IMG/VR virus record: IMGVR_UViG_3300031754_000002
Coordinates: 32,001-96,000 of that record
Origin: a virus
DNA: 64,000 nucleotides
Direction: 5' to 3' (one strand)
Positions 12,755 through 21,704 of the stretch are shown here, piece after piece. The notes beneath the pieces are model-generated. The model searched no databases, had not been told where the DNA came from, and was given only the letters and a program-made list of their open reading frames with translations. The translations under genes and the position numbers were made by a program. Each line of letters begins with the position of its first letter. Positions within the stretch are counted from its first letter, which is position 1.

Positions 12755-14059
12755 CTAGTATTCCGCACTCACTTCTAGTCCACTGCCTTCCATATAGGCA
12801 AGGCCCGTCGGATAACGATGCAACGCTGCCGCATAGCCATGAAGCTGGAACCGTGCCTGCAACGTCCCGGACAGAACCTCCTTGAACACGCTCGTATGCT
12901 TCGGCGACTCGAACAACACACTGTCGGTCGGACGTGCGCACACAATCACGTCGCGGTTTTTCCCTGCCCCAAGAGTCGCAGGAATCGCATCTGACAAAAA
13001 TGTCGGCCAGCCAAGGATCGGGGGAGCGACAGCAGGCCGCGAGTCATCGAACGTGTACGCCACGGGAGGGAGCGCTTGATGCCCAGGAACCGCGAGAGGG
13101 AGGTTCTGCAAATCCTCAGCACCCCCGAGATAGCACCAGCGAGCGGTCCGCATCAACCACACCTCCGGCGGACAGTTCCGTGCATCCCCCAGCTTTGCCG
13201 CGACCTGCGACAGCGCAGCGAACATTTCATAGCCCTGTTTACCCGTGTACTGCACTACCGACACGCCACCCGCACCGGTAGTGAGATTCAGCACACCCGC
13301 GATTCGCTGGTTCGCTTTCCCCGTGCCAGTAAACAGCGACTCCTCAAGCCTGCGGTCATAGGACTCCAACAGGTCCTTCAACACCACTACATCCAAGGCG
13401 GCAGTAGCCGGTGATTGTTCAAGCTGCTGCATCGAACAATCCGCCTGCCCCGCGAACGTCTCACACCACGATTCAACCGCCGCATCCGTGAAGTCCCGTT
13501 CCGGCGCAGGCGTGACATCAGATACTCCCGGCGCGTGAGTGCCTTCCACGATACGCGGCAGGTTCACTTCAACCACGCCCGTCGGCAAATCGAAAGTAGG
13601 GATCATGCTCGCGTAAACCCGCTTGGCCCTCGCGGCAGTGGCAAAATACTCATTGGCCCACCACGGCACCCCAAAAAACTCGCCACCAGTGACACGGCTA
13701 GGGTTCACACGAAACTCCGCGCCCTCAAGCCTCCGCTGCTGCAACCTTTCACTCTCAACAGCAATCTCTTTGGCGTGACGCTCCAACCGTGCTCTCGCCC
13801 GCTGATCATTGCTGATCTGCGCACGCGCCACGTCCGCGAAGTAGCTTGCCTGCTCCTCGCGTGGAAGATGACCCTGAAAGCGTTCATACACCATCGGCTC
13901 ACGACGTATCTCAACGCGCGGTGAAAGCCGCTGTAGCTCAGCATGGTACGCACGAGCGCTAACAACCGCTTCCGCCTCGATACGTGCCCGGACTTCGGCC
14001 GGGATCGCAGCGCCACGGTCCTCCTCGACAGTCTCGTCAAGCTCTAGCGTGTCGCTCAT
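12755..14059 (-). CDS. Major capsid protein 2 (HK97-fold paralog)
   Basis: Follows prohead protease; shares NLP, AGQ.D...Q.LEQSP and EVLSGTL..RFQ motifs with MCP 1. Confidence 0.8.
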   Translation of the reverse strand: MSDTLELDETVEEDRGAAIPAEVRARIEAEAVVSARAYHAELQRLSPRVEIRREPMVYERFQGHLPREEQASYFADVARAQISNDQRARARLERHAKEIAVESERLQQRRLEGAEFRVNPSRVTGGEFFGVPWWANEYFATAARAKRVYASMIPTFDLPTGVVEVNLPRIVEGTHAPGVSDVTPAPERDFTDAAVESWCETFAGQADCSMQQLEQSPATAALDVVVLKDLLESYDRRLEESLFTGTGKANQRIAGVLNLTTGAGGVSVVQYTGKQGYEMFAALSQVAAKLGDARNCPPEVWLMRTARWCYLGGAEDLQNLPLAVPGHQALPPVAYTFDDSRPAVAPPILGWPTFLSDAIPATLGAGKNRDVIVCARPTDSVLFESPKHTSVFKEVLSGTLQARFQLHGYAAALHRYPTGLAYMEGSGLEVSAEY

Positions 14060-15837
14060 CGCGCCAACCTCAACATGTCCAGTTCCTGCTCAGCACGACG
14101 CGTCAGATCAACCACAACAGCCGAGCGACCGTTCGTCTCCTCACTGTCATCAGCACCCTGAGCCTCATCAGCCTTACCGAGCGCGGTAGCAGCCGCTTCC
14201 AAAGCCTTCGTGACCTTCTCGTCGGACGGACTGTCCATATCACCGGTCTGTTCGGCTAGCGCCTTAGCAACAGCCTCTTTCGCCTCGTCGATCGAGTCAG
14301 ACACACCCTCGTCAGCATCGTCTCTGGCCTCAGCCTCATACTCGGCGCGTAGCTCACGCACGCGCTCCGTGTACTCCTCGCCCTTCGCCGCTGCCTTCGC
14401 TTCCAGGCCCTCCCAGAACGATGCAGGCTCAGACTCCGACGGCAGTAGACCCGAAAGCTCGTCTCCGGCCTCCGCGAGCTTATCCACCAAGCCCTGAATC
14501 AACTGTTCCTTCGCAGACGACAACGCTTTACCCGCACGGAACTCATACTCGCCATCCGTTGAGCGAATACTTGTCGTGCTACCCGTTGACGGTGATGCGC
14601 CGAATGTGACGGCACTCACATCTCCGCCGTGCAAGGTCACACCCTTCACTTTGCGGTCAGTTAGCTCATCATTCCAGTCATCATCGGTGCAGCGAAACGC
14701 GAAACTCATCTGATCCACGAGCCCGCGCTCCATCTTCAGCTTTAGCCTCTGTGCATCCACGTCCCGCGGGTCAAAGGTCGCGTTCACGAGCAGCCCCTTG
14801 GATGTTTCCTCCAGCCTCAACGTGCCCGGAATGTCCGAGTCCTTACGTTCCGTTCGTGCAAGCGGCAAGCCTTCGTGTTCCACTCGAAACACGCAATCCG
14901 GTTCCTCTTTCAATGTGCGGCGAAAACTGCCACGGGAAATAGTCTCCGTGAAGCCACCAACCGAATATGGCACATCAAAAAGTGACGCATATCCTTCAAA
15001 ATGGAACATGCCATCATCGTCTTCGCTGCCGTCCCGGAACTCACATTCACGCACCGAGAACTGCCGGTGCTCCAAGCCCTTCGCGTTACGCAGATTTTCG
15101 ACCCGCCGCTTACGCAGCTCAAACTGTGCGGCGCTACGCGAATCCTTCTCGATTTCGCCCGTGCCATCACAATCCGGGCACTCCTTACCCTTCACCTTGC
15201 CACTACCATCACACGTCGGGCACGTTTCCATGTCCTCAGTGTCGTTTTCCACCGCACGCCGACCATTCGCCTCCGGCGCATATGTGGTGACACGCCGCAC
15301 CTTCTTAGGCGTCCCCAACGTCACATTATCATCGGCGTCCACCATGTACGTCACCTGCCACAACACGTCTTCGCGTTCATACACCGCCCACTCGTCAGTC
15401 ATGTCCGAGATGTAGACGTAGGAATATTCGCCCTTTTTAGGCTTCGGGAGCGATTCGACTATCGCCTGCTGCACCATCTGGCGACGGTCATTGTAGGTTT
15501 CGCGCTCCTCAAGCGTTGACCACACCGACTTTTCTTCTTTCAGCGATCCATCACTAGACCAATTGTCGGGTATGAGCGAACTGAGTTTCAGCGCCTTGGC
15601 ACGCTTAATGATGTGCGCACGGATTGAGTCATGGCTCGCATCTCCACGTCCGACCGCTTTGATCGCTTTTTTTAGGTCGTCTTCGTCCCCGATCGGGTAC
15701 GAGCCATCGGCCATTGCTTCGCCTTTTTTTGCCATTTCGTCACGGTCGGCCTTCTTGTACTTCGCGCGCCACTCCCGCTCAAGTGACCGTTCGACCGTCA
15801 CGATGTCAGTCTCGACCGGCTCAGTCTCAACACCCAT
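14056..15837 (-). CDS. HK97-family prohead protease with extra N-terminal domains
   Basis: FEGYASLFD, ETISRGSF, HEGLPLART, QMSFAF, DVSAVTFGA; N-terminal AMADGSYPI domain and CxxCxGxG Zn finger; acidic scaffold-like C-terminus. Confidence 0.85.
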   Translation of the reverse strand: MGVETEPVETDIVTVERSLEREWRAKYKKADRDEMAKKGEAMADGSYPIGDEDDLKKAIKAVGRGDASHDSIRAHIIKRAKALKLSSLIPDNWSSDGSLKEEKSVWSTLEERETYNDRRQMVQQAIVESLPKPKKGEYSYVYISDMTDEWAVYEREDVLWQVTYMVDADDNVTLGTPKKVRRVTTYAPEANGRRAVENDTEDMETCPTCDGSGKVKGKECPDCDGTGEIEKDSRSAAQFELRKRRVENLRNAKGLEHRQFSVRECEFRDGSEDDDGMFHFEGYASLFDVPYSVGGFTETISRGSFRRTLKEEPDCVFRVEHEGLPLARTERKDSDIPGTLRLEETSKGLLVNATFDPRDVDAQRLKLKMERGLVDQMSFAFRCTDDDWNDELTDRKVKGVTLHGGDVSAVTFGASPSTGSTTSIRSTDGEYEFRAGKALSSAKEQLIQGLVDKLAEAGDELSGLLPSESEPASFWEGLEAKAAAKGEEYTERVRELRAEYEAEARDDADEGVSDSIDEAKEAVAKALAEQTGDMDSPSDEKVTKALEAAATALGKADEAQGADDSEETNGRSAVVVDLTRRAEQELDMLRLAR

Positions 15838-15896
15838 GCGGACCTCCTTCGGAAACGAAAAGCCCGCAATTTGCGGGAAGTGAGCACAACGCACCT

Positions 15897-15912
15897 GTTA
15901 GCGTGTGCTAAC
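15897..15912. promoter_or_regulatory. Palindromic putative operator at divergent promoter
   Basis: GTTAGC-gtgt-GCTAAC between protease start and RHH gene. Confidence 0.35.
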
Positions 15913-15924
15913 GTCTGCGCGAAT

Positions 15925-16086
15925 GTGAAACAAACTGGGCTTCGACTAGAAGATGATCTACTTGCGCGGGTAGAAGCTGCTCGTGGTGACGTGCCACGTG
16001 AAGTGTTCCTTCGTCGCGCAATCGAACTTATGCTCAACACTAAACGAGAGGACTCCGATGGCAGCACGACCCGCACTGGTTCCTGA
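15925..16086 (+). CDS. Small ribbon-helix-helix-like regulator
   Basis: KQTGLRLEDDLLARVEAARGDVPREVFLRRAIE has a CopG/Arc-like pattern. Confidence 0.6.
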   Translation: MKQTGLRLEDDLLARVEAARGDVPREVFLRRAIELMLNTKREDSDGSTTRTGS

Positions 16087-16588
16087 ATCCGGCCCGTATG
16101 AGATTCTGCAAGGACTCATAGCCGAGGTGCTAGCCAACGGTGACTTTGTACCTGCGGAGGAAGCCCTGCGTATCGACAGGCTCATGCGCGAGAAGCATCC
16201 AAGACAACATGCTGCGTTTTTGGAGGCCCAGTCCTATCGCCTTTACTACGAGATACTGCAAGGTGCCTACCAAAGCCAGCGGCAGCGTTCGCGTCACCAC
16301 GCTCCCGCTAGTGAATTCGGCCGACGTGCTACCGGCAAGCACGATGATGTCTCAGTGTTTATAACGTGGCGCTGCAAGGTAGACGATGCCAACACTCAGC
16401 GAACGATCGGCGACATGACCGGAGCCGATCATCTCTATGTCGCCGACAGCTATCGCGGCGATAAGCAACGCGCAGCGATGCTAGAGGCATTTCACCGTGC
16501 AGTCGCAAAGAAGGCTGGTAGGCGCAAAACAAGCGAGGTCTTTTCAGAGGACCAGTTCCTCGCACTCTACGAAAGCATCGCTAAATAG
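16058..16588 (+). CDS. Hypothetical protein, candidate accessory factor of the RAMP cassette
   Basis: GAGAGGA RBS; 176 aa; directly precedes array 1. Confidence 0.7.
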   Translation: MAARPALVPESGPYEILQGLIAEVLANGDFVPAEEALRIDRLMREKHPRQHAAFLEAQSYRLYYEILQGAYQSQRQRSRHHAPASEFGRRATGKHDDVSVFITWRCKVDDANTQRTIGDMTGADHLYVADSYRGDKQRAAMLEAFHRAVAKKAGRRKTSEVFSEDQFLALYESIAK

Positions 16589-16603
16589 CACGACGGCCCT
16601 TGT

Positions 16604-16733
16604 TGACTGGCCCAGCCGTTGCACCTCCCCGCTGCCTTTCCGACTCCGCTGCCCACACTGCTCCTGCCCCGCCCCACGCTCCCGACTCGTCATCACAGCT
16701 CCCAGCCGAACAGGCCTGCCCAATCCTCCCGAC
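16604..16733 (+). repeat. Array 1: three CGAC-anchored units with 5-nt periodicity (putative guide-like ncRNA)
   Basis: (T/C)GAC at 16604, 16641, 16683, 16730 (spacing 37, 42, 47); pentamers end in C (19/21; the rest end in T). Confidence 0.75.
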
Positions 16734-16771
16734 CTCCTGAACTATTACTAACCAAAACACGAAAGGCCAAC

Positions 16772-17485
16772 ATGACCAGCATATTCGAGCCATACCGGCG
16801 CAAGAATTATCCGTATGTATTCGTCGCCTCGATCCACCTGCACACGATCGCGGGCGGCGTGCCCCTAAACGAGACAATTCTTGAGGGACACCTCAAGCGC
16901 AAGACCGCCGCACCCGATGACCTAATTCGCTCCGAGGTCGCCTCAATCATGGTCGAGGAGGGACTAAGTGCCGATGAGGCCATTGAGCGTGCCGCGAAAC
17001 GCAAGGGCCTTGTGGGCTTTGCGAAGGACAGCAACGGCCTTTATGTGCGCGGCTTTCAAGTCAAGGCGATGCTTGTAGAATCGGCGTGCATCGCTGCCGC
17101 CGAGGGACGCATCCCGAAGAAATGGGGCCAAATGTCCGAGCAAGGAAAGGCACTCAAGAGTTGGTTTCCCGAGCATGTGTTTGTTCTCGATGACCGGATT
17201 CACCTCGGCGTGGACGAGCCCACCGAAATTCCACAGTCGTTTATACACAAGGTAGGCCCGAAGGGGCCGATGAGCGCTATCCAGTACACGGAGCTCGTCC
17301 GCGATGCCGACGTATCCTTCGCGGTCGAGACAGACCACGACTTTCCCGAGGATGTTTGGGCCGCGATTTGGCTCACAGCCGAGCGTAACGGCCTTGGCGC
17401 ATCACGCAAGCTCGGCTATGGCACTTTTGAGAGCCGCAAATGGCAGAAAATGTCATCCCGTACCCGTAAACTTAAGGCCGCATAA
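16772..17485 (+). CDS. Stand-alone Cas7/Csm3-like RAMP superfamily protein (237 aa)
   Basis: N-terminal beta strand + GGVP; LYVRGFQVKAMLVESA (cf. IPGSSLKGxLR); C-terminal G-rich loop GLGASRKLGYGTF; GAAAGG RBS. Confidence 0.75.
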   Translation: MTSIFEPYRRKNYPYVFVASIHLHTIAGGVPLNETILEGHLKRKTAAPDDLIRSEVASIMVEEGLSADEAIERAAKRKGLVGFAKDSNGLYVRGFQVKAMLVESACIAAAEGRIPKKWGQMSEQGKALKSWFPEHVFVLDDRIHLGVDEPTEIPQSFIHKVGPKGPMSAIQYTELVRDADVSFAVETDHDFPEDVWAAIWLTAERNGLGASRKLGYGTFESRKWQKMSSRTRKLKAA

Positions 17486-17487
17486 TC

Positions 17488-17723
17488 TCTCGACACCGCC
17501 CGCTCGAAACACCGCACGAACCTGTCAGCCCATCCGACCAGTCAAACCAATCCGTCGCGCCTCGATACTATGCGCCGCACCCGACATTCCTCCTCGTCGA
17601 TACCCCTCGGCCCCGCCTATCTCCCCATCCCTTCCGACAGCCCCCCGTCGCCCTCGCCCTCACAGTACGCCCCCTCTCTCTCGACACCCCTGCCGCGACA
17701 CTCCGCACCCCTCCGCTTCCGAC
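17488..17723 (+). repeat. Array 2: five CGAC-anchored units with 5-nt periodicity (putative guide-like ncRNA)
   Basis: CGAC at 17491, 17535, 17582, 17635, 17682, 17720; e.g. cagtc aaacc aatcc gtcgc gcctc gatac tatgc gccgc. Confidence 0.75.
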
Positions 17724-17741
17724 TAACCGAAAGGACCACCG

Positions 17742-18779
17742 ATGACCGATGAGCCGAGTCGAAGCGACGAGATCAAGCACGTAGAAGGAGAGCTAAAGTC
17801 CCTTGCGAACCAAGTGGGCGTTGCGATAGGGCGTCTCCGTGCATTGCTCGGGGACGAGTTCGTCAAGAAGGTCCATGCCGCCGTGACTGGACGAGTTGCC
17901 TTTGACGAGGCGCAGCCGCTCACAGATGCGGATGCACGGGCATGGAGCGAGGCGAACCCCGGCAAGCAGGTACGTTTTACGGTGGAGTCCGAGGTCAAGC
18001 CCACAGGCGCCCGAAAGTTGGATGACTGGCTGGACGTGAAGGCACCCAAGGGCACCGTCGAGATCCGCAGCAATGAGATCAAGGAACTGGAGAAACAGCT
18101 AAAGGCGATCCCCGGTAAACTCACCGTTGCGGAGCTAGGCTGGATTCACAATCGTCTTGGCGAACTCTATAGGATGCCGGTGAAGGGCAACGCGGCACAG
18201 CAATCCTTTGCGCAAGCCTTCGGTATGGCACCATCGGAAATACATACGATCGAGGACGCGATTGTTGAGCTAGCCGACAAGCTCGGCGAGATGCGCACGG
18301 ACATTACATCGCTCCGTCAGACCGTGGGCGAGCTGCAAACCCCGTTTGAGCCATACGAGCCGCCAGTGCTCGCCAAGATACTTCGTCCGCATCTGCTCGC
18401 GCTAGACGATCACGGTGAGGACGAGTGGGCTGAGGGATCGTTCGGCTGGGGTGAGTGTTTGTGGGTGCCCGGCAAGGTGGGCATTGATGTGACGGAGATC
18501 AAGGTTGAGGCGCTGGCCGCCGGGACGGACAATATACACGGCGCGCAAGTGAAAACCTACGCCACCTATCGTGAAGACCACCACGATACCACACAGCGCG
18601 AACTTGTTGAGTGCATCGCGCGGGAGGCAGCTAAGCGGAACGCAACTGTTGTGTATCTCAGTAAGCCGGCGCATCGCCATATCCACGGCGACTATCCTGG
18701 CGACACGCCGCGTTTCCTACAGCACTGGTGTTATGCGGCGTTTTTGAGTGCGGCCCGCGCCGCCGGAGACGAGCAGTGA
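17742..18779 (+). CDS. Hypothetical protein with coiled-coil segments
   Basis: GAAAGGA RBS at end of array 2; 345 aa. Confidence 0.7.
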   Translation: MTDEPSRSDEIKHVEGELKSLANQVGVAIGRLRALLGDEFVKKVHAAVTGRVAFDEAQPLTDADARAWSEANPGKQVRFTVESEVKPTGARKLDDWLDVKAPKGTVEIRSNEIKELEKQLKAIPGKLTVAELGWIHNRLGELYRMPVKGNAAQQSFAQAFGMAPSEIHTIEDAIVELADKLGEMRTDITSLRQTVGELQTPFEPYEPPVLAKILRPHLLALDDHGEDEWAEGSFGWGECLWVPGKVGIDVTEIKVEALAAGTDNIHGAQVKTYATYREDHHDTTQRELVECIAREAAKRNATVVYLSKPAHRHIHGDYPGDTPRFLQHWCYAAFLSAARAAGDEQ

Positions 18780-19225
18780 GTGACGACTTCGGCAAACTGC
18801 ACCAAGCCGACAACTCCGCCAGCCTCAACGGTGTGACACTCCGCGACCTTACCGAGGCTTTCGACGCCGAGTTTGAGAATCGCCTCATCGCAGGCATCTA
18901 TCATCTACGCGAAGGAGACACCATGACCACAACCCCGAACCCCTTGAAGCTGAAAGGTATGCGCCAAATCGGTCCGCGACGCGGACTATGCCTTATCCCT
19001 CGCCACAACGGCGTAGGCGCCCTGCTCGGCGCAGACATAGAAATCACTACTACCGAACCATGAACCTGAGCATGTTAGCCGTGCCGTCTATGAACTCGTG
19101 TGCGATTCGCTACTCGACAGACGGATAGATAATCCACACGACCCCGCTCAGCGCAAGGTATGGGTGCGCTGCATGACCGAGGAGCACGAGCAGGAAAGCA
19201 ATCGTCTCGCCGGGTTCTGAGGGGC

Positions 19226-21704
19226 CTACTTAGCTGGCGTCAACACCTTCCCGTCACCGTTCGATGACGGCACAGCCGGCTCCGGTGCATACTTCGCTTC
19301 GATGGCCTGTTCCGCTTCCGCCATCACTTTTTCAAGTAGCGTCGTGTTAATCGGCGAGTTCAGTTTATCGCCGTCCGGCAACGCCGGCAGGTCGAACAGT
19401 GCTCGTGCGTCGTTCGGCGTGAAGTAGCCTCCGAGCGTCCCGAGCGAGCCAGCGTTCGCGCGCTCAAGGGTATCCCCGCGCAGACGGTGGCTCATGTCGA
19501 TCGCCACGAACTGCCCTGGCGGGTGGATCGCGGTCATCGCGGCTTCGTAACGGCCCGTATAGTCCTGCAACGTGTTTTTCGTAAAGCCTAGCTCCTGCTG
19601 CTCGATCCCCCGATAATCGACCCCACGAGTTGTGAACAACCACGCCTTCGGCTAGGAAGGAGTGATTACCCGCAACCGCGAGGTCATAGACTGGCACCTC
19701 AACTTTCGAGCGGTCGATTTTGATTACACGCTGCAAGATAACGTCGTCGTACTCCCAACCGTAGCTCGGGCTCTGCCGGCGACCATCCCAGCCGCCAACG
19801 TTGCCGCCCGTCCATCCCTCGTCATAGCGCCCTAGTCGTATTGCTGGTCGAGTGACGAGTCGCGCCCGCTTACGCGCGCTATTGGCACCGATACGACTAT
19901 TGAAGAACACAGTCGAGAGAGCAAGTTGATACTTCTGGCCCGACCGCACACGACGGCCAGCAATCACCGCGTCACACGGCGGTCGTCCCAGGTGGACTCG
20001 TCCAGCCGGAACACCCACTTGGATGCACAAGTGGCGGATATCCTCTAGCAGGAGTCGGTTACACGATGCGAAGCTAATCGCCCCTGCCTTGTTGACACTC
20101 CCGTCTGCGTCGAGATATCCGCGCAGGAATGCTAGCTGTAGCTCCGGCTTGAGTTCGTACACCCAACCCGGCACTCGCTTTGTATGCGCGTCGCCCGTGA
20201 ACCCGCAGTCGTCAAGCAGTTCGCGTGCGTCGGCCGACGAGAAGCGCGTCCTCGTGCCTGTGCGTATCCCCCGATTGGGTGCGTTGTCTGTGTAGGGTTC
20301 TACGCCGAACTCATCGCGTACGACCTGGCAGTAGTGCTCCATGTGATCGGGCTTGCTCTCGTGGGCGAGCTCGAAACGGTTTTTGTCCTGTGAGCCATCG
20401 CCCGTGTAGAGTCCACAAAGCTCCATCGCGCCGACCGTAAGCTGGCGCCCATTGGGCGCATACTCATCACCCTGGTCCCCGAAGCCATGAGGCACGAGCA
20501 GGTAATCCTTGATCGTAACCTCATCGGCGCGAACCCAAACCGTTTCCCAGGCGCAGTCGCCACTCGCACGGCCCTCTGGCCGTCCAAAGTATCGGCGCAC
20601 TGGCAAAACATGGTTTGCCGTCAACTTGACAGTGCGAGCCGATGTCTGGATGCTCAGGAGAGGCTTGTGGCCGGTTAGTTGCCGCGAGACGACCGTTGCA
20701 GGCTCGATCCCGCGCTCACCGAGCGACCAAACCTCCTCGCCAGCCTGAATCTCGCAGATTGGCCGTGGTCCCTGCGTCGTGAACACCTGCGCTTCGGCGG
20801 GCAGACACGAAACTCGTTCAGTCAGTCCGATCATGTGCGGGGGGCACCGAAAGATCGTGGATGCGATCTCTGATGCCGACCATTGAAGCGATTCTAGGAA
20901 TTGGGAGTCCTGCGGGGATATCGTGATCGGCTTGATTTCCGTGTCACCCGTCACGACGGCTGGAAGATGCGAGCTATTCAAGCCCTGGTGCGCCGCCATA
21001 AACGAGCGAACCATTTTCTTTGTCTGGTCCGGCGACAGGTCACCCTTGACCTGGATCACGATCGACGGGTTCGCGCTATTGCGGAAGTACTGTAGCCCAT
21101 AGGTGGACTGCGAAAGCGACTTGCTAAACGCCAAGCGCTGCGCCTCAATTGGGTTAATGCCTTCCAACATTCCCGGAAGCCAGAGGAGCTTGACGTGAAA
21201 TACATCTTGCCTTGGCACAACTTTATTGAAGAACCGATACTGGAGTTCTCCTTTACGCAGCCGTTCGACATGCGCACTGTCGGCCGGTATGGGCTTGATC
21301 TGCGTCGGGTAGAGCTGCTTGTCGCGGCTGATGATCTGGCCGAAGAAGTTGCCACGAATGGCGAGGGACGCGACGAACTGGACGATCCAGTCGAAAAGCC
21401 CAATCTCGCAGTATGGTTCGGTGAGGAGGGGAGAGGGTTTTAGCTCTTTCGCCTTTCGTAGTACCCTGTTGTTGAGCAGCAGAACGGGGGAGTTCGCTAC
21501 CGAGCTAGAAAGAAGGTTAGCGCATGAGTAGACGGTCGCTATCGAGAGCGCCGCCTCTTGGCTTACACCCATGCCTCCAGACCCACCGAATCCCCCGATT
21601 TCTGAGTTCGTAGGCTACGGGGGAACGCTGTTGCCCCATTCGGTGCCCGGCCGCGCCGCGCGTGCGTCCATTGTCTGTGACAGCGCGCGAAGGATCAACG
21701 ACAT
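19226..21704 (-). pseudogene. HK97-family portal protein with intein; interrupted by an in-frame TAG (21615-17) and a frameshift (~19615)
   Basis: AALSIATVYSC, LAIRGN, SPQDSQFLES, IFRCPPHMIG, SWGxGIEQQ, TPNDARALFDLP; disruptions may be real or assembly errors. Confidence 0.8.
19629..20807 (-). mobile_element. Intein with LAGLIDADG endonuclease in portal (393 aa)
   Basis: S|CLPAEAQV...TANH...GLYTGDGS...FLRGYLDADGS...VYDLAV...VVHN|S. Confidence 0.9.

What the first reader, a model, noticed from the sequence alone, without database searches (positions are those of the whole stretch)
16604..16733. Array 1: unit lengths step in exact multiples of 5
Anchors at 16604 (TGAC), 16641, 16683 and 16730 are spaced 37, 42 and 47 nt, i.e. 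7 + 5n with n = 6, 7, 8. The pentamers are: tggcc cagcc gttgc acctc cccgc tgcct | tccgc tgccc acact gctcc tgccc cgccc cacgc | tcgtc atcac agctc ccagc cgaac aggcc tgccc aatcc. Position 5 is C in 19/21 and a pyrimidine in 21/21, while positions 1-2 vary freely. The units are not copies of one another, so CRISPR and tandem-repeat finders would miss them. The 5-nt phase is incompatible with codon structure.
Basis: seen in the sequence. Interest (0 to 1): 0.85.

Follow-up and report, generated by a model that had tools for sequence, protein, structure and literature searches.

The report
Phage VIPR guide-RNA array, C-type
The odd 5-base stepping is real and marks a head-to-tail array of short guide RNAs for a phage-encoded Cas7-like protein (a VIPR system, a CRISPR relative first described in 2026), here in an unusual form written with C instead of G.

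Summary
Anchors, spacings (37/42/47) and 19/21 phased C are as stated. The three-unit run is unique in the 105.9-kb phage genome and never appears in 200 composition-preserving shuffles. The tract is non-coding and lies between a conserved 176-aa partner gene and a 237-aa gene whose model is a Cas7/Csm3-like RAMP. In 80 related phage loci the same arrays flank the homologous gene. Over 467 CGAC sites, C peaks every 5 nt, and CGAC spacing is 5n+3 (chi-square p about 5e-118). Array content turns over completely between phages whose flanking genes are about 90% identical. This matches VIPR systems (bioRxiv 2026): one Vipr protomer per pentamer, three fixed and two variable bases. The copy is non-canonical. 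The fixed bases are ccC (not GGY) on the gene's strand, units abut through a bare GAC with no 3' tail, the G-reading G-loop residues of SUSP1 Vipr are replaced, and the partner gene is unrelated to vap1. No RNA data or targets were found, so the transcribed strand (C-rich sense favoured, about 75%) and the targets remain inferred. Earlier follow-ups of this scan reached the same reading for this clade on other DNA. Verdict: new variant of a known kind.

The parts
15919..16086 (+). Small ORF with a weak ribbon-helix-helix match; possible regulator at the head of the + strand cassette
   Evidence: Pfam RHH_1 E 0.008, below the cut-off. Membership in the system is uncertain.
16058..16588 (+). Partner (vap-like) gene; P0002 is the ORF from 15983, and the likely start is the ATG at 16058
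   Evidence: Homologues occur in 48 of 80 related loci, always on the vipr strand and usually just upstream (alignment A2). The model has pLDDT 91, is all-alpha, and has no PDB fold match. No Pfam hit. Not similar to SUSP1 vap1 (hhalign E 0.4).
16591..16733 (+). Array 1 (the finding). A mini-unit runs 16592-16604. Three guide-like units run 16605-16641 (37 nt), 16642-16683 (42 nt) and 16684-16730 (47 nt). The closing CGAC lies at 16730-16733. Each unit reads GAC + n x (NNccC) + NNCC.
   Evidence: The array starts 3 nt after the stop codon of the partner gene.
16731..16771 (+). Leader of the vipr gene: the last GAC, a possibly degenerate AT-richer unit, and the Shine-Dalgarno GAAAGG at 16761-16766
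   Evidence: In 18 of the 28 related loci with an SD-like match, the last CGAC lies 5-19 nt before the SD.
16772..17485 (+). vipr-like gene (P0003, 237 aa): a solitary Cas7-like RAMP with the G-rich loop GLGASRKLGYG
   Evidence: AlphaFold model pLDDT 88.9. Foldseek E 2.6e-7 to type VII Cas7 and Csm3. VIA-align Z 10.8. Weak PADLOC Csm4/Cmr6 hits. 95 homologues. hhalign to SUSP1 Vipr E 0.006 over 120 columns.
17489..17723 (+). Array 2, with GAC at 17492, 17536, 17583, 17636, 17683, 17697 and 17721. The units at 17536 and 17636 (47 nt each) are cleanly phased (8/8 and 7/8 C). The others are partly degenerate.
17742..18779 (+). Downstream gene P0001 (345 aa, unknown); its SD follows the last CGAC of array 2 by 5 nt. 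Not a conserved part of the system.

Best explanation
Array 1, and its twin at 17489-17723, are arrays of VIPR-type guide RNAs (vrRNAs). They serve the Cas7-like protein encoded between them (16772-17485).

Inferred mechanism, by analogy with the solved SUSP1 system. The cassette partner gene / array 1 / vipr / array 2 is transcribed on the + strand. Vipr protomers polymerise on the unstructured C-rich RNA, one per pentamer. Each protomer grips the fixed bases (ccC, with the last C nearly invariant) and presents the two variable bases (NN). A unit with n NN pairs and n+1 fixed triplets is 5n+3 nt long. In this phage the last triplet is one base short or shares its G with the next GAC, giving 5n+2. 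That is why unit length moves only in steps of 5.

GAC is the first fixed triplet of each unit. It shifts the register by 3 and so marks where one filament ends and the next begins. It is probably also where the transcript is cut, releasing the vipr mRNA with a short leader.

The NN series would then read double-stranded DNA of a competitor (another phage, a satellite or a host gene) in a gapped code and silence it.

Shown here: the array anatomy, its conservation and hypervariability, the RAMP fold, and the gene linkage. Inferred: transcription of the C-rich strand, binding by the protein, processing at GAC, and DNA targeting.
For: - **Real signal.** The phasing and 5-nt steps are real and unique in the genome.
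- **Family-wide phasing.** In 31 related loci, 467 CGAC sites show C at 0.84-0.86 at +8 and +13 and at -5, against 0.30-0.36 at the NN positions. Over the deduplicated loci, 1311 spacings between phased CGAC sites give 574 with spacing = 3 mod 5 (chi-square p 4.9e-118).
- **Gene linkage.** 82 of 89 arrays lie on the strand of the Cas7-like gene and flank it. The partner gene is present in 48 of 80 loci.
- **RAMP fold.** P0003 folds as a minimal Cas7-like RAMP.
- **Array turnover.** L018 and L021 have 90% identical vipr DNA but share none of 18 and 15 upstream units. L030 and L038 also share none.
- **Codon-like NN sets.** Within a guide, the NN set behaves like codon positions 1-2 read from one strand. 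It is over-dispersed relative to within-locus permutation (z 5.2, 0 of 2000 permutations).
- **Unstructured sense RNA.** The sense RNA of array 1 folds less stably than 197 of 200 shuffles.
- **Literature.** VIPR consists of Vipr + vap + pentamer vrRNAs, with one protomer per repeat and a 1-nt-skip DNA code. Variant repeats (NNNGG, YNNNG, NNNNG, GAC/NN, CAC/NN) and tail-less 'staggered' arrays are reported (bioRxiv 10.64898/2026.04.26.720920.720927 and 2026.10.21.760802). I confirmed the SUSP1 locus anatomy in KT454805.2.
- **Strand.**
  - The cassette is tightly packed: array 1 starts 3 nt after a stop codon, and SDs follow the last CGAC.
  - Strong hairpin terminators follow the C-strand 3' end in L059 and L050.
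  - The G-reading residues D177 and W178 of SUSP1 Vipr align to an invariant Ala and a Ser here.
Against: - No RNA evidence exists for this phage. Expression, strand, ends and protein binding are untested.
- No target was found for any guide.
- Sequence similarity to a bona fide Vipr is weak: hhalign probability 6% against SUSP1, and only the G-loop aligns against the Gordonia phage Pipp homologue.
- The canonical GGY motif and the structured 3' tail are absent.
- Seven arrays in relatives lie on the opposite strand, so co-transcription with vipr is not universal.
- The terminator evidence rests on two loci, and the L050 hairpin is bidirectional.
- Array 2 is partly degenerate.
Confidence: 0.8

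Rival explanations
1. It is the same VIPR-type system, but the functional guide is the complementary G-rich strand: units (GgN/NN)n ending in GUC. This would be transcribed antisense to vipr in most loci and would match the published NNNGG / NNNNG repeat variants.
For: All VIPR repeats characterised experimentally are G-based. The reverse complement reads G(0.85) g(0.74) n NN, compatible with 'NNNGG/NNNNG'. In L050, L010 and L012 the G-rich strand is co-directional with vipr, giving a canonical-looking layout. The pattern itself is strand-symmetric.
Against: - 82 of 89 arrays would then be antisense inserts wedged between co-directional genes. They would have no room for promoters: array 1 starts 3 nt after a stop codon and SDs follow the last CGAC.
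- In L050 a strong terminator on the vipr strand sits before the array.
- In L059 a unidirectional terminator follows the C strand.
- The Asp and Trp that read the two guanines in SUSP1 Vipr are not conserved.
- Non-G fixed triplets ending in C (GAC/NN, CAC/NN) are already reported.
Confidence: 0.15
2. It is not a guide array but a cis-regulatory leader. Candidates are a C-rich, G-poor Rho-loading (rut-like) or unstructured translational leader, or a G-quadruplex / i-motif element, controlling the downstream gene.
For: The tract is C 46%, G 17%, predicted unstructured, and sits in a 5' leader. Such composition is typical of rut sites (established knowledge).
Against: Leaders of this kind need neither a strict 5-nt register, nor GAC punctuation at 5n+3, nor lengths up to 1.3 kb. 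Nor would they turn over completely between phages with 90% identical flanks. Arrays also occur downstream of the gene and, in a few loci, on the other strand. The tight linkage is to a Cas7-like RNA-binding fold.
Confidence: 0.04
3. It is chance low-complexity sequence, or a translated N-terminal extension from the TTG at 16619.
For: An ORF 16619-17485 is open through most of the array. The + strand is generally C-rich in this genome.
Against: Shuffle tests reject chance. All 33 aligned homologues begin at the Met equivalent to 16772, behind an SD. The array sequence is not conserved as protein, and the register is 5, not 3.
Confidence: 0.01

Closest known systems
VIPR systems (Vipr + vap + vrRNA); reference type II of Escherichia phage SUSP1 (KT454805.2; PDB 36pp; bioRxiv 10.64898/2026.04.26.720920 and .720927)
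   Same: Both are phage-encoded and have a solitary minimal Cas7-like RAMP with a G-rich loop and one conserved partner gene. Non-coding arrays flank the gene. The arrays are built of pentamers with three constrained and two free bases. Guide content is hypervariable. There are no CRISPR repeats or other cas genes. Length quantisation in steps of 5 nt follows from one protomer per repeat.
   Different: - The fixed bases are ccC on the gene's strand, not GGY.
- Units are about 28-53 nt and abut head to tail through a bare GAC. SUSP1 has roughly 100-nt vrRNAs, each with its own structured 3' tail.
- Arrays reach about 50 units.
- The G-loop reads G-L-G-A-S-R here. It reads G-V-G-[DE]-W-R-P in SUSP1 and in Gordonia phage Pipp.
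- The partner gene is unrelated to vap1.
- Expression and targeting are untested.
Non-canonical VIPR-like arrays found by entropy periodicity (bioRxiv 10.64898/2026.10.21.760802): 21 clusters with motifs such as GAC/NN, CAC/NN, WGT/NN, TGH/NN; and 'staggered' tail-less arrays of the discovery paper (fig. S18)
   Same: Both have a period of 5 with a non-GGY fixed triplet, some ending in C, next to a Vipr-like fold. In both, the arrays are tail-less and one guide ends where the next begins.
   Different: I could not see their figures or cluster lists. I therefore cannot say whether the ccC/NN motif with GAC punctuation and the 5n+3 rule is among them. Those clusters are described as repeating about 10 times, whereas units here hold 5-10 pentamers and are chained.
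CRISPR arrays with type III / type VII Cas7 backbones
   Same: The protein fold is closest to Csm3 and type VII Cas7. The RNA is bound in a fixed register by a protein filament. Mature type III crRNAs differ in 6-nt steps for the same reason (established knowledge).
   Different: There are no identical repeats of 20 nt or more, no spacers of free sequence, and no other cas genes. The register is 5, not 6. The periodic constraint is written into the guide itself.

Membership tests
VIPR | Solitary minimal RAMP (single RRM core, G-rich loop, thumb) outside any CRISPR-Cas locus | tested here: met
   Model pLDDT 88.9. Foldseek E 2.6e-7 and VIA Z 10.8 to type VII Cas7 and Csm3. G-loop GLGASRKLGYG. 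No CRISPR-like repeats in 15800-18900. No other cas-like hit among the neighbours.
VIPR | Protein is a sequence homologue of described Vipr proteins (SUSP1 Vipr, X1U2U4 lineage) | tested here: inconclusive
   hhalign of the family profile against SUSP1 Vipr gives E 0.006 and probability 6%, over 120 columns including helix-1 and the G-loop. Against the Gordonia phage Pipp homologue only the G-loop aligns. The solved Vipr (36pp) is present in the sequence copy but did not appear in either fold search. No accession lists were held for the paper.
VIPR | Long intergenic tracts flanking the gene made of at least 4 tandem pentamers with fixed and variable positions | tested here: met
   Window arrays at 16591-16733 and 17489-17723. 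Family profile and spacing statistics.
VIPR | Repeat consensus GGY/NN (YNNGG) on the transcribed strand | tested here: not met
   The sense strand reads NN-c-c-C and the antisense reads G-g-n-NN. Published variants (NNNGG, NNNNG, GAC/NN, CAC/NN) show this feature is not universal.
VIPR | Residues that read the two guanines (SUSP1 D177, W178 in the G-loop) | tested here: not met
   They align to the invariant A210 and to S211. R179 aligns to the near-invariant R212. The alignment has low confidence outside the G-x-G...G-x-F frame.
VIPR | Conserved structured 3' tail after each repeat tract (type II) | tested here: not met
   Units abut through GAC only. No significant structure and no Rfam match. 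Tail-less staggered arrays are reported for other types.
VIPR | Adjacent accessory gene (vap) | tested here: met
   The P0002 family is present in 48 of 80 loci on the same strand. It is unrelated to vap1, and its fold and function are unknown.
VIPR | Variable NN positions hypervariable between close relatives | tested here: met
   No units are shared between loci with 88-90% identical vipr DNA.
VIPR | vrRNAs expressed and co-purifying with the protein | not testable with these tools
   No RNA run was listed for this stretch.
VIPR | DNA targets matching the NN series under the 1-nt-skip rule | tested here: inconclusive
   - No signal in 0.98 Mb of related DNA or in the own genome.
- Three 18-base window guides gave 0, 1 and 0 exact hits in IMG/VR. 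The single hit lies in an AT-rich phage, about what chance predicts.
- Long family guides gave none.
- Indirect support comes from codon-like strand consistency of NN sets (z 5.2).
CRISPR array | Near-identical direct repeats of about 23-50 nt separating unique spacers | tested here: not met
   The only shared element is [CT]CGAC. Repeat finders report nothing of that kind.

The most novel reading that the evidence does not exclude
This clade of Cas7-like proteins reads a different fixed triplet (ccC, started by GAC) on a C-rich sense RNA. It packs up to about 50 tail-less guides head to tail, delimited only by a 3-nt register shift. That would amount to a second, independent solution of the VIPR RNA-protein code, with its own processing logic and an unknown partner protein. 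If true, the protein-RNA recognition part of this guide system is evolvable, and C-based guides that avoid G-quadruplex-prone sequence exist.
Probability: 0.6. Interest if true: 0.65.

Novelty: new variant of a known kind. Interest (0 to 1): 0.55.

Why it matters
VIPR was described only in 2026, and its experiments cover G-based (GGY/NN) guides from enterobacterial and Pseudomonas elements.

This window belongs to a large, mostly soil-metagenome clade that also includes the isolated Microcystis phage Mae-JY09. In it the same 5-nt logic is written differently. The triplets are C-anchored, GAC acts as unit delimiter, there is no tail, the G-loop residues differ, and the partner gene is different.

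If the C-rich strand is the guide, three things follow. The fixed-triplet code can be changed. There is a natural design for dense multiplexed arrays. A new accessory protein awaits study.

For annotation, such tracts should be called guide arrays rather than 'C-rich leaders'. CRISPR and tandem-repeat finders will not find them.

Tried and rejected
- **Period-5 Fourier scan.** A scan of the genome in 40-nt windows did not single out the region, because the phase resets at each GAC. An anchor-aware scan did.
- **Contigs of closest homologues.** Metagenome scans returned nothing closer than 58%.
- **RNA evidence.** No RNA holder was listed.
- **Rfam and promoters.** No Rfam match. No sigma-70-like promoter on either strand.
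- **Partner gene.** No Pfam, PHROG or PADLOC family and no PDB fold match.
- **Targets.**
  - A local search under skip rules 0-3 showed only chance-level matches. The excess at skip 3 reflects array-to-array similarity.
  - Exact pattern scans of IMG/VR and of species genomes found nothing convincing.
  - The first and last NN of the window units are constant (TC) and may belong to the boundary, which would make my 16-18-base patterns too strict.
- **Terminator census.** The census at array ends was too sparse to decide the strand.
- **Cellular genomes.** The family was found in 1 of the 301 actinobacterial-class genomes searched. That one was the Kineosporiaceae MAG used as the search centre.
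- **Rho/rut and G4 readings.** These were considered first and dropped once the family-wide register and the RAMP fold appeared.
- **Not run.** Complex prediction was not used.

Full report
**1. What is there**

The window is bases 32001-96000 of a 105,858-bp IMG/VR phage record. A short + strand cassette lies between the minus-strand capsid-protease gene (14056-15894) and the portal gene (19464-21572). It has five parts:
- a small ORF with a weak RHH match;
- a 176-aa gene (16058-16588, within P0002);
- a 183-nt non-coding tract (the finding);
- a 237-aa gene (16772-17485, P0003);
- a second 256-nt non-coding tract, followed by a 345-aa gene (P0001).

Both tracts are about 46% C and 17% G on the + strand.

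**2. The observation**

Position 5 is C in 19 of 21 pentamers and T in the other two.
- Shuffling each spacer and taking the best of five phases reaches 19/21 with P = 2.5e-4 (mononucleotide) or 4e-4 (dinucleotide).
- An anchor-aware scan of the whole genome, both strands, finds only one run of consecutive GAC-anchored phased units. That run is this one. The next best long units lie in the second tract, at 17536 and 17636. None of 200 shuffles preserving local composition gave a run of three.
- A plain Fourier scan does not flag the region, because every GAC shifts the phase.
- The tract is not translated. All aligned homologues begin at the Met of 16772, which follows GAAAGG.

**3. Evidence from relatives**

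P0003 has 95 homologues in public protein sets, none annotated. A pattern scan of IMG/VR returned 80 loci.

*Composition and phasing.*
- In most loci the 200 nt upstream of the homologue are 45-57% C and 13-21% G, and hold 5-9 CGAC.
- Aligning 467 CGAC sites from 31 loci gives a sharp profile. C frequency is 0.77-0.86 at -10, -5, +8 and +13. It is 0.30-0.36 at the two positions after each peak.
- The repeat is therefore NN-c-c-C, with the last C nearly fixed.
- CGAC is a 3-nt insertion (GAC) between two pentamers.

*Spacing.* Among 1311 spacings between phased CGAC sites, 574 equal 3 mod 5 (chi-square p 4.9e-118). A unit is thus GAC-NN-(ccC-NN)x-ccC. With n variable pairs between n+1 fixed triplets it is 5n+3 nt long.

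*This window.* Here the last triplet is one base short, or shares its G with the next GAC.

*Lower-GC relatives.* In L054 only the fifth C (with a T before it) is kept, so composition alone does not explain the pattern.

*Size, strand and partner.*
- Arrays run up to about 1.3 kb, and up to about 55 phased CGAC sites lie upstream of one gene.
- 82 of 89 arrays lie on the strand of the gene.
- A partner gene (the P0002 family) is present in 48 of 80 loci, always on the same strand.

*An isolated phage.* Microcystis phage Mae-JY09 (PP395641.1) carries a homologue followed by a clean array.

**4. The protein**

The AlphaFold model of P0003 (pLDDT 88.9) matches Cas7-family RAMPs. These include type VII Cas7, Csm3, Cmr4 and Cas7-11 domains. 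Foldseek gives E down to 2.6e-7 and VIA-align gives Z 10.8. It ends in a G-rich loop, GLGASRKLGYG. No other cas gene and no CRISPR-like repeat lie nearby.

**5. What it is**

I read the papers and checked the reference locus myself.

*What the papers report.*
- VIPR is a phage-borne pair of a minimal RAMP (Vipr) and an accessory gene (vap), flanked by non-coding RNAs made of GGY/NN pentamers (bioRxiv 10.64898/2026.04.26.720920).
- One Vipr protomer binds one repeat. It sequesters the fixed triplet and exposes NN (bioRxiv 10.64898/2026.04.26.720927).
- The NN series reads double-stranded DNA while skipping every third base.
- Variant repeats (NNNGG, YNNNG, NNNNG), tail-less 'staggered' arrays and, later, non-G triplets such as GAC/NN and CAC/NN are reported.

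*The reference locus.* In SUSP1 (KT454805.2) I found the vrRNAs, vipr and vap1 as described. The G-rich repeats lie on the coding strand of vipr.

*The fit.* The window's cassette has the same architecture, and the 5-nt step follows directly from one protomer per pentamer.

*Three further tests agree with guide arrays.*
- **Turnover.** L018 and L021 share 90% vipr DNA identity and near-identical flanks, but none of 18 and 15 units. The same holds for L030 and L038.
- **Codon-like NN sets.** The NN sets of single guides are consistently 'coding-strand-like' or 'template-strand-like' for codon positions 1-2. They are over-dispersed relative to permutation within loci (z 5.2, 0 of 2000). This is expected if guides copy genes with the wobble base skipped.
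- **Structure.** The sense RNA of array 1 is less structured than 197 of 200 shuffles.

**6. How it differs**
- The fixed bases are ccC on the gene's strand, not GGY.
- Units are short (about 28-53 nt), have no structured tail, and abut through GAC.
- The profile of this family aligns to SUSP1 Vipr only weakly: E 0.006, 120 columns, including helix-1 and the G-loop.
- In that alignment, D177 and W178 fall on an invariant Ala and a Ser. These are the residues that read the two guanines. A Gordonia phage homologue of SUSP1 Vipr keeps E-W there.
- The partner gene has no similarity to vap1 and no fold match.

**7. Which strand is the guide**

The pattern is strand-symmetric, so this must be inferred.

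*For the C-rich sense strand.*
- 82 of 89 arrays are co-directional with vipr.
- Packing is tight. Array 1 starts 3 nt after a stop codon. In 18 of the 28 loci with an SD-like match, the last CGAC sits 5-19 nt before the SD. That leaves no room for antisense promoters.
- A strong unidirectional terminator lies right after the C-strand end in L059.
- In L050 a terminator on the vipr strand precedes an opposite-strand array.
- The G-reading residues are lost.

*For the G-rich antisense strand.*
- All VIPR guides tested experimentally are G-based.
- Three loci look canonical if read that way.

I put the sense reading at about 75% within the VIPR explanation.

**8. What is not known**
- No RNA data could be found.
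- No target was found. There is nothing above chance in the own genome or in related loci.
- Exact scans with three window guides gave 0, 1 and 0 hits. The one hit was in an AT-rich phage and is consistent with chance. Long guides from relatives gave none.
- The host is unknown. One distant homologue lies in a Kineosporiaceae MAG, and no other of the 301 genomes of that class searched had one.

**9. Verdict**

This is a guide-RNA array of a VIPR-type system, a kind known since 2026, in a non-canonical C-anchored, tail-less form. Other agents of this scan reached the same reading for this clade on other DNA. I tested the claims independently here.

Noticed in passing
genome 1-390 and 105480-105858 (outside the window; window coordinates -31999..-31610 and 73480..73858): Both ends of the phage record are long tandem runs of the hexamer CGACCN and share an identical 22-nt interruption. 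This is probably one repetitive stretch split by the assembly of a circularly permuted or terminally redundant genome. The hexamer contains the same CGAC as the array delimiter, perhaps by coincidence.
   Followed up: no
window 19464-21572 (-): The portal-like ORF (702 aa) carries an intein-like insert, with a Cys at the start and HNS at the end of an inserted block containing a homing-endonuclease-like region.
   Followed up: no
window 15919-16086 (+): A small ORF at the head of the cassette has a weak ribbon-helix-helix (RHH_1) match (E 0.008, below the Pfam cut-off). It may regulate the cassette.
   Followed up: partly
window 17742-18779 (+): The 345-aa gene after array 2 has no family match and is not conserved next to vipr in relatives. 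Its SD follows the last CGAC by 5 nt, as for vipr itself, which suggests GAC-linked processing also frees this mRNA.
   Followed up: partly
L010 4851-5900, L012 2130-2530, L050 34-196 and 2119-2937: In these relatives, arrays lie on the strand opposite to vipr (divergent or convergent). Arrays can therefore have their own promoters. These loci are the best natural test of which strand is the guide.
   Followed up: partly
L001 5660-6183 (Microcystis phage Mae-JY09, PP395641.1, record end): An isolated, sequenced cyanophage carries a homologue of P0003 (31% identity). A clean CGAC/NNccC array with 33-nt spacing follows it. All genes there are annotated as hypothetical.
   Followed up: partly
L094 2222-2845 (Gordonia phage Pipp, MN234179.1, gene 42): This actinophage protein is a distant homologue of SUSP1 Vipr (tblastn E 3e-4) and keeps the canonical G-loop G-V-G-E-W-R-P. 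Canonical-type Vipr proteins therefore also occur in actinophages, next to an HTH gene and the integrase.
   Followed up: no
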